Positions 3,272 to 3,338 of a DNA stretch of 64,000 bases are shown here, in pieces. Each line of letters opens with the position of its first letter. The first letter of the stretch is position 1. The translations under genes were made by a program, and so were the position numbers. The stretch lies in the NCBI RefSeq assembly GCF_013167455.1, contig NZ_CP038328.1, one strand, 5' to 3'. This stretch comes from Escherichia coli O157:H7 (lineage in GTDB: Bacteria > Pseudomonadota > Gammaproteobacteria > Enterobacterales > Enterobacteriaceae). The notes under the pieces were generated by a model that worked only from the letters and a program-made list of their open reading frames with translations, did not search any database and was not told where the DNA came from.

Positions 3272-3294
3272 AATTACCTCTCGCTTTTCTGCAA

Positions 3295-3319
3295 TAAAAA
3301 AGGCGCCATTTCTGGCGCC
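3295..3319 (-). terminator. Intrinsic terminator-like hairpin between J and lom
   Basis: Hairpin ggcgccatttctggcgcc followed on the minus strand by a T-run, about 25 nt upstream of the lom RBS. Confidence 0.4.
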
Positions 3320-3338
3320 CGTATATGGGTTATAAAAT

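What the first reader, a model, noticed from the sequence alone, without database searches (positions are those of the whole stretch)
3272..3338. Terminator-like hairpin immediately upstream of lom
A GC hairpin plus T-run lies between the J stop and the lom RBS, leaving no room for a promoter after it. lom would need read-through or a promoter inside the 3' end of J, which is a possible route to lysogen-specific expression of this virulence-associated outer-membrane protein.
Basis: seen in the sequence. Interest (0 to 1): 0.3.

Follow-up and report, generated by a model that had tools for sequence, protein, structure and literature searches.

The report
Intrinsic terminator between J and lom
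The hairpin is a real, evolutionarily conserved transcription stop signal between the tail-tip gene J and the outer-membrane gene lom of a lambda-like prophage of E. coli O157:H7, but it is the ordinary kind of terminator that the phage's own antiterminator-modified polymerase reads through during lytic growth, and nothing in the sequence points to a lysogen-specific route for lom.

Summary
The 67-nt J-lom spacer (3272-3338) carries an 8-bp, GC-rich stem with a GAAA loop (3320-3301), followed by TTTTTTATT. The hairpin starts 18 nt after the J stop, and its 3' end lies 29 nt before the lom ATG. Equally strict hairpin+T-run sites are about 30 times more frequent in the window than in shuffles.

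Across 157 related J-lom loci the hairpin sits at the same place. It occurs in four stem versions, including lambda's, with compensatory changes at three stem positions. The only exception is an IS insertion into the hairpin.

No credible sigma-70 promoter lies after the hairpin or in the last 600 nt of J. A promoter in J's 3' end would in any case sit upstream of the terminator.

Equally strong terminators precede J and the holin gene in the same operon, and a Q-family antiterminator gene lies upstream. Read-through by Q-modified polymerase is therefore the normal way this operon is expressed.

Verdict: a conserved intrinsic terminator that belongs to a terminator-lom-terminator cassette. It is the positional counterpart of lambda's J-lom terminator (t'J1, from memory). 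It is ordinary and of low interest. How lom is transcribed in lysogens remains unexplained.

The parts
3339..6869 (-). J-like tail-tip / host-specificity gene. This is the mechanical ORF from a TTG start; PGAP in a 99.9% identical genome starts it at 6818. Stop codon TGA at 3341-3339.
3321..3338 (-). 18-nt AT-rich linker between the J stop and the hairpin (ATTTTATAACCCATATAC). The TTATAACCC-like motif is shared by two lom classes, and its function is unknown. The linker is long enough that a ribosome terminating on the J stop should not cover the hairpin (inference).
3301..3320 (-). Terminator hairpin GGGCGCCA-GAAA-TGGCGCCT: 8 pairs (6 G-C, 1 A-U, 1 terminal G-U), dG -15.1 kcal/mol.
   Evidence: covariation
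3293..3301 (-). T-run TTTTTT-A-TT directly after the stem (the first T also closes the stem). TTTTATT is invariant in all 29 distinct spacers, including lambda's.
3277..3282 (-). lom Shine-Dalgarno GAGAGG, 5 nt before the ATG. AGAGG is invariant in all lom classes.
2672..3271 (-). lom (Ail/Lom outer-membrane beta-barrel, 199 aa).
2618..2645 (-). Second intrinsic terminator, directly after the lom stop and before the stf-like tail-fibre gene: AGCCCGCCGG-TTCA-GGCGGGCT + TTTTTTG, dG -17.6 kcal/mol. Lambda has it at the same place.
1384..2613 (-). stf-like side tail-fibre gene. It is downstream of both terminators, so it also depends on read-through.
27629..28171 (-). Q-family late antiterminator candidate (DUF1133; Phage_antitermQ at 30.1 bits against a cut-off of 26). 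It heads the same-strand late operon.
27030..27546 (-). Cluster of four strict terminators just downstream of the Q-like gene. This is the tR'-like region that unmodified polymerase would not pass.

Best explanation
The element is a factor-independent (intrinsic) transcription terminator on the late-operon strand, 18 nt after the J stop. It forms the upstream border of a terminator-lom-terminator cassette. Unmodified RNA polymerase that reaches it, from any stray or internal start in the silent late region of the prophage, would form the GC hairpin, stall on the U-run and release. This would keep lom, the tail-fibre genes and the cargo further downstream insulated in the lysogen. After induction, polymerase that starts at the late promoter and is modified by the prophage's Q-family antiterminator ignores this and the other terminators in the operon. 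J, lom and stf are then transcribed as one late message, and lom is translated from its own strong SD 14 nt beyond the U-run.

Shown here: the structure, its position, its selection (covariation), the absence of a promoter after it, the presence of comparable terminators ahead of indispensable late genes, and a Q-family gene upstream.

Inferred: that it terminates in vivo, that Q-modified polymerase reads through it, and that insulation is the selected benefit.
For: Anatomy typical of E. coli intrinsic terminators:
- 7-8 bp GC stem, 4-nt loop and a run of 6 U followed by A-UU.
- The strict pattern is about 30 times enriched over shuffles, and the distinct sites lie mainly on the late-operon strand.

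Conservation with selection for pairing:
- 157 J-lom loci gave 29 distinct spacers.
- Stems are GGCGCCA/TGGCGCC, GGCGTCA/TGACGCC, GGCACCA/TGGTGCC, GGCACCT/AGGTGCC, and lambda's unrelated CGTCCG/CGGGCG at the same position.
- 91.4% of cells are paired, against 32-64% when the partner is slid. Compensatory double changes occur at 3 of 8 pairs, and 0 of 500 shuffles reach the covariation score.
- RNAalifold recovers the same core stem on its own.
- The loop is free to vary (GAAA, GGAA, CAGG, even flipped to TTTC in L158), while the T-run is invariant.
- The one locus without an intact stem has an IS4-family element inserted in the hairpin, with a 13-bp target duplication.

No promoter after it or nearby.

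Read-through is the operon's norm:
- A strict terminator sits at 6892-6869, immediately before J, and another at 24370-24341, before the holin gene.
- A Q-family gene and a terminator cluster head the operon.
- Q makes polymerase resist terminators (PMC4005639), and lambdoid Stx prophages use PR'/tR'/Q (PMC7547250).
- Lom is strongly expressed in the lytic cycle (PMC9836094, citing Liu 2013).

The spacer diverges together with lom rather than with J. The same J 3' end is joined to two diverged spacer+lom types, and one spacer+lom type is joined to different J ends.
Against: - No transcript data were available, so termination and read-through are untested for this element.
- lom of lambda is reported to be expressed in lysogens (PMC1151598, PMC7067206). 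A tight terminator with no downstream promoter does not explain that. The terminator may be leaky, or an unrecognised promoter may exist.
- HK97, which lacks lom, has no canonical terminator after J. A terminator at the end of J is therefore not a general requirement.
- Covariation counts come from related sequences, so the events are few (about 4-5 independent stem types).
- The Q assignment rests on a modest Pfam score.
Confidence: 0.82

Rival explanations
1. The arrangement is a device for lysogen-specific lom expression: a promoter in the 3' end of J, or regulated partial read-through of the hairpin, supplies lom mRNA in the repressed prophage.
For: Lambda lom is reported as transcribed in lysogens (PMC1151598, PMC7067206), and its promoter is unknown (PMC2147009). 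A weak sigma-70-like site (ATGAAA-17-CAGTAT, -10 ending at 3346) exists at the end of J in the window and in class-3 loci.
Against: That site scores at background level, and about 0.17% of all window positions score as well. It lies in coding sequence that is conserved for protein reasons. It is missing from loci with the other J 3' end and from lambda. Its transcripts would still meet the terminator about 20 nt after their start. No alternative (antiterminator) fold competes with the hairpin, and there is no Rfam match. One lysogen array study did not detect lom at all (PMC2147009).
Confidence: 0.08
2. The hairpin works mainly at the RNA level. It would act as a 3'-end stabiliser of the J message, or as the terminator and Hfq-binding module of a small RNA derived from the 3' end of J. 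This need not exclude the terminator function.
For: A stable stem plus U-tail is the usual 3' protective and Hfq-binding module. EHEC prophage late regions do encode Hfq-bound sRNAs, such as StxS (PMC7547250) and HnrS in Sp9/Sp10/Sp12 (bioRxiv 10.1101/2025.11.27.690950). The linker motif TTATAACCC is conserved between two lom classes.
Against: No promoter gives a discrete short transcript. No Rfam family matches. HnrS pairs with the hha ribosome-binding site (AGAAG), and the J-lom spacer contains no complementary CTTCT. Conservation upstream of the stem is no greater than expected for homologous spacers.
Confidence: 0.08
3. A DNA-level palindrome unrelated to transcription, such as a recombination or IS target site or a chance inverted repeat.
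For: Mosaic junctions between J types and lom types fall in or near the spacer. In one locus an IS element is inserted exactly in the hairpin. In another the loop is inverted, as palindromes allow (L158).
Against: The T-run is invariant and lies only on the transcribed-strand side. The opposite strand has no T-run after the stem. Pairing is maintained with unrelated stem sequences in lambda. The strict pattern is very rare by chance.
Confidence: 0.02

Closest known systems
Lambda terminator in the J-lom spacer (recalled as t'J1 of the tandem t'J1-t'J4 terminators; Luk & Szybalski 1983, Mol Gen Genet 189:289). This is from memory and was not retrievable in the paper library.
   Same: Same position: 16-18 nt after the J stop and about 30 nt before the lom ATG. 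Same design: GC stem, GNRA-type 4-nt loop, TTTTATT tail, then GAGAGG and ATG. Also followed by a second terminator right after lom.
   Different: The stem sequence is unrelated and weaker in lambda (6 bp, -9.0 kcal/mol, against 8 bp, -15.1 kcal/mol). The flanking linker is not alignable. Neither the lambda GenBank nor the RefSeq record annotates it.
Q-dependent antitermination of the lambdoid late operon (PR'-tR', lambda Q; Stx-phage PR'/tR'/StxS)
   Same: There is a same-strand Q-family gene, followed by a cluster of strong terminators and then more than 25 kb of late genes with embedded terminators. The mechanism is described in PMC4005639 and PMC7547250.
   Different: This element is a distal terminator inside the operon, not the promoter-proximal tR'. 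The Q protein here is of the DUF1133 type, and its action on this site is inferred.
Morons of lambdoid phages (Juhala et al. 2000; PMC3594210)
   Same: lom is an extra gene between J and stf, which are neighbours in HK97. It has its own downstream terminator. HK97's annotated morons likewise leave a terminator just before J, as does the window.
   Different: A moron is defined with its own promoter and usually a deviant GC content. Here no promoter is found, a terminator sits where the promoter would be, and lom GC (56.8%) equals that of J (57.4%).
lom of short-tailed Stx phages (933W / VT2-Sakai type)
   Same: Ail/Lom-family gene with a terminator directly downstream, ACCCGCTGTGATGGCGGGT + TTTTTATTGC.
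   Different: There the upstream spacer is 90 nt and AT-rich, and it has no terminator. It carries a good sigma-70 candidate (TTGAAG-19-TAAAAT, score 10.2, above the window's top-0.01% level), which is the classical promoter-gene-terminator layout.

Membership tests
Intrinsic (Rho-independent) terminator | GC-rich stem of about 5-14 bp with a short loop (3-8 nt) | tested here: met
   8 pairs, 6 of them G-C, loop GAAA, dG -15.1 kcal/mol
Intrinsic (Rho-independent) terminator | U-rich tract immediately 3' of the stem on the transcribed strand | tested here: met
   TTTTTT-A-TT at 3301-3293 on the minus strand. It is invariant in 29 distinct spacers. There is no T-run on the opposite strand.
Intrinsic (Rho-independent) terminator | Located downstream of a coding region, in the direction of transcription | tested here: met
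   18 nt after the J stop, on the same strand as J, lom and stf
Intrinsic (Rho-independent) terminator | Pairing maintained in evolution | tested here: met
   91.4% of cells paired, compensatory changes at 3 pairs, lambda with an unrelated stem at the same site
Intrinsic (Rho-independent) terminator | Releases transcripts in vitro or in vivo | not testable with these tools
   No transcript-end data for this locus could be reached.
Terminator overridden by lambdoid Q antitermination | Lies inside an operon headed by a Q gene, a late promoter and a promoter-proximal terminator | tested here: met
   Q-family gene at 27629-28171 (-), four strict terminators at 27546-27030 (-), then lysis, head and tail genes on the same strand
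Terminator overridden by lambdoid Q antitermination | Genes needed late lie beyond it or beyond equivalent terminators | tested here: met
   Strict terminators precede J (6892-6869) and the holin gene (24370-24341). stf lies beyond both lom-flanking terminators.
Terminator overridden by lambdoid Q antitermination | Read-through depends on Q | not testable with these tools
   Needs a comparison of induced wild-type and Q-deficient prophages.
Moron (promoter-gene-terminator insert) | Extra gene between genes that are adjacent in a related phage | tested here: met
   HK97 has J followed by stf, without lom
Moron (promoter-gene-terminator insert) | Own terminator downstream | tested here: met
   2645-2624 (-) plus T-run
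Moron (promoter-gene-terminator insert) | Own sigma-70 promoter upstream | tested here: not met
   None by the tool's scan or the position-weight scan. The 933W-type lom does have one.
Moron (promoter-gene-terminator insert) | Base composition different from neighbours | tested here: not met
   lom 56.8% GC, J 57.4%, stf 59.5%
Attenuator / riboswitch-type regulated terminator | Mutually exclusive antiterminator structure or a known leader family | tested here: not met
   The hairpin is kept in the MFE and centroid of a 200-nt context with no competing helix. No Rfam match at gathering score or at E<=1 other than noise.

The most novel reading that the evidence does not exclude
The terminator-lom-terminator cassette of long-tailed lambdoid prophages might be a deliberate dosing device. 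A leaky terminator, fed by weak constitutive starts inside J or by an unrecognised non-sigma-70 promoter, would give a low lysogenic level of Lom. The terminated J 3' end would accumulate as an Hfq-bound small RNA. This would explain the long-unresolved source of lom expression in lysogens.
Probability: 0.06. Interest if true: 0.4.

Novelty: already known. Interest (0 to 1): 0.1.

Why it matters
It matters little beyond annotation. The site could be annotated as a terminator in O157:H7 prophages and in lambda records, where it is currently unmarked. The comparison does sharpen one small point. In long-tailed lambdoid phages lom is not a classical promoter-bearing moron. It is a late-operon passenger bracketed by two terminators, whereas in short-tailed Stx phages it has a promoter-like spacer. 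Claims that Lom is a lysogenic-conversion factor of J-linked prophages therefore need a transcript-level explanation, and the sequence does not supply one.

Tried and rejected
- Plus-strand reading of the finding. It was rejected because all the genes are on the minus strand.
- Rfam, at E<=1 locally and at gathering score over the whole window. Nothing matches at the spacer.
- Promoter after or overlapping the hairpin. None was found in the window or in 7 representative loci. Lambda has only weak TATTAT/TATAAA hexamers without a -35 (score below 4).
- Antiterminator or alternative fold. None was found. RNAalifold proposed a U-run:SD pairing, but it has no covariation and competes with the conserved stem.
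- Moron by composition. Rejected.
- Hairpin belonging to J. Rejected because HK97 J lacks it and the spacer co-diverges with lom.
- The apparent natural loss of the stem in L149. It is an IS insertion.
- Identity with the EHEC prophage sRNA HnrS. This is unlikely, because the spacer has no sequence complementary to the hha RBS motif, and the paper gives no coordinates.
- Literature confirmation of lambda t'J1-t'J4 and of Liu 2013, Barondess 1995, Court 2007 and Casjens 2015. These are not held in the library. Two further searches were uninformative.
- Scans of genome contigs and metagenome contigs were not run. The extra cross-genus sampling would not change the verdict.

Full report
**What is there**

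The window's first 29 kb is the late region of a lambda-like prophage of E. coli O157:H7. It is 99.9% identical over 9 kb to strain ECP19-598, where the prophage sits in ydfJ. All late genes run on the minus strand. The J-like tail-tip gene ends with TGA at 3341-3339. lom (Ail/Lom family, E=5e-118) starts at 3271 and ends at 2672. An stf-like tail-fibre gene follows at 2613-1384.

Read on the minus strand it is:

ATTTTATAACCCATATAC GGGCGCCA GAAA TGGCGCCT TTTTTATTGCAGAAAAGC GAGAGG TAATT ATG

- The stem occupies 3320-3313 and 3308-3301.
- The loop occupies 3312-3309.
- The T-run occupies 3301-3293.
- The SD occupies 3282-3277.

**Is it more than chance?**

- The hairpin alone has -15.1 kcal/mol.
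- The spacer folds at -18.6 kcal/mol, z = -2.67.
- In a 200-nt context the hairpin is retained in both the MFE and the centroid, with no competing helix.
- The tool's permissive terminator pattern is not enriched (8 found against 7.0 expected).
- A strict definition gives 32 raw hits, 18 distinct sites, in the window. Shuffles give 0.98. The distinct minus-strand sites in the prophage fall mostly in short gaps between late genes.

**Conservation**

Two scans of IMG/VR with the window's Lom and with lambda's Lom gave 157 loci with usable upstream sequence. These yielded 29 distinct 70-nt spacers. Every locus with J upstream has a hairpin plus T-run at the same place. Four stem families occur:

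- GGCGCCA/TGGCGCC, with the single-pair variants GGCGTCA/TGACGCC and GGCACCA/TGGTGCC.
- GGCACCT/AGGTGCC.
- GGCACC with a 6-nt loop.
- Lambda's unrelated CGTCCG/CGGGCG.

On the alignment, 91.4% of cells pair, against 32-64% when the 3' partner is slid. Three of the eight pairs show compensatory double changes (GC/AU 15:12, CG/UA 17:10, AU/UA 20:4). No shuffle reaches the observed covariation score. Most unpaired cells are lambda rows that MAFFT placed 2 columns out of register. RNAalifold finds the same core stem independently.

The loop varies freely, and in L158 it is inverted to TTTC. TTTTATT and AGAGG never change. The single locus without a whole stem (L149) carries an IS4-family element inserted into the hairpin with a 13-bp target duplication. 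These sequences are related, so the number of independent events is small, about four or five stem types. They all point the same way.

**Which module does the hairpin belong to?**

- The same J 3' end (…GISIS*) is joined to two spacer+lom types that differ by about 30% in the spacer.
- One spacer+lom type is joined to different J ends.
- From the stem to the ATG the sequence follows lom.
- HK97, which has J followed by stf and no lom, has no canonical terminator after J.
- A second strong terminator follows lom directly (2645-2624), and it is conserved in lambda.

The unit is therefore terminator-lom-terminator. It fails two defining features of a moron. It has no promoter of its own, and its GC content is not deviant (56.8% against 57.4% for J). 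By contrast, lom of the short-tailed VT2-Sakai/933W type has a 90-nt AT-rich spacer. That spacer has no terminator and carries a good promoter candidate, TTGAAG-19-TAAAAT.

**Promoters**

Only 29 nt lie between the stem and the ATG, and they are filled by the T-run and the SD. A position-weight scan of the 600 nt upstream found nothing above background. The best site lies 361 nt upstream and scores 6.57 (top 0.06% of positions). The nearest is ATGAAA-17-CAGTAT at the end of J, with a score of 5.06. That site lies in conserved coding sequence and is absent from the other J type and from lambda. It would start transcripts about 20 nt before the hairpin, so it offers no bypass.

**How it most likely works**

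The operon begins with a Q-family gene at 27629-28171 (DUF1133 plus Phage_antitermQ above cut-off). This is followed by four strict terminators (27546-27030). Lysis, head and tail genes then follow.

Strict terminators also stand directly before the holin gene (24370-24341) and before J (6892-6869), which the phage cannot do without. Late transcription must therefore be terminator-resistant. This is what Q does in lambda and in Stx phages (PMC4005639, PMC7547250). Lom is indeed reported as strongly made in the lytic cycle (PMC9836094, citing Liu et al. 2013).

The J-lom hairpin is thus one more internal terminator. Q-modified polymerase ignores it, and unmodified polymerase in a lysogen should be stopped by it. 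The 18-nt gap after the stop codon should leave the stem clear of a terminating ribosome (inference from the usual ribosome footprint). Termination itself, and its dependence on Q, are inferred and not shown.

**What remains open**

Lambda lom is reported to be transcribed in lysogens (PMC1151598, PMC7067206). One array study did not see it and noted that the lom promoter is unknown (PMC2147009). The sequence offers no source for such transcription other than leakage through the terminator. Lambda's version is the weakest of the set (-9.0 kcal/mol).

**Comparison with what is known**

From memory, lambda's late operon ends in tandem terminators t'J1-t'J4 (Luk & Szybalski 1983). The J-lom hairpin would be t'J1, and the one after lom would be t'J2. 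I could not retrieve that paper, and no lambda or related record annotates the site. Either way, the element is an ordinary intrinsic terminator in a Q-antiterminated operon.

**Verdict**

Novelty is nil to minimal, and interest is 0.1.

Noticed in passing
window 6869-7058 (-): Between the I-like tail gene (stop at 7061-7059) and J lies a roughly 40-codon ORF (ATG at 7013, MKINVMELFF...). It is followed by a strong terminator, ACAGGCACCCTCCGGGGTGCCTGT + TGTTTT (6892-6869). This small moron-like insert sits at the position where HK97 carries its gp22/gp23 morons and an annotated terminator.
   Followed up: partly
window 27030-27546 (-) and 27076-27137 (+): The region after the Q-like gene holds four strict terminators. 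It also holds an Rfam STnc100 match (27138-27330, -, 149.9 bits), an AgvB anti-GcvB sRNA match on the opposite strand (27076-27137, 96.5 bits) and a truncated tRNA-like match (27417-27476, -). ARAGORN does not call that tRNA-like match, although a related genome annotates tRNA-Met there.
   Followed up: no
window 24341-24370 (-): A long hairpin (up to 11 pairs) plus T-run lies between a DUF826-type gene and the holin gene, inside the late operon. It could be another internal terminator or the 3' end of a small RNA.
   Followed up: partly
L149 513-1960: An IS4-family element (336-aa transposase, ends GTAATGCC.../...GGCATTAC) is inserted exactly in the J-lom terminator hairpin, with a 13-bp target duplication ACCAGAAATGGTG. 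This separates lom from J by about 1.4 kb.
   Followed up: yes
L158, J-lom spacer: The terminator loop is the reverse complement (TTTC instead of GAAA) and the stem is unchanged, as if the palindrome centre had been inverted.
   Followed up: no
window 3322-3335 (-) and class-3 loci (e.g. L100): The motif TTAT(A/T)AACCC between the J stop and the hairpin is shared by two lom classes whose stems differ, and it is absent in lambda. It does not score as a promoter, and its function is unknown.
   Followed up: partly
window 1075-1097 (both strands): A symmetrical hairpin with T-runs on both strands (a bidirectional terminator) lies between the tail-fibre genes and the downstream DUF1076 (NleG-like effector) genes at 424-1140 and beyond.
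   Followed up: no
window 29767-29942, 36755-37220, 42069-42247, 46557-46674, 50052-50147, 55133-55249: Other Rfam matches at gathering score: sok, DicF + isrK + C4, RalA, FnrS, McaS and an ALIL pseudoknot (IS3-type frameshift signal). These show that the prophage carries several sRNA and antitoxin loci and that host sequence follows after about 46 kb.
   Followed up: no
window 17144-17169 (-): A strict terminator-like hairpin (9 pairs plus TTTTTAAT) lies inside the 5' part of the prohead protease / major capsid fusion gene rather than between genes.
   Followed up: no
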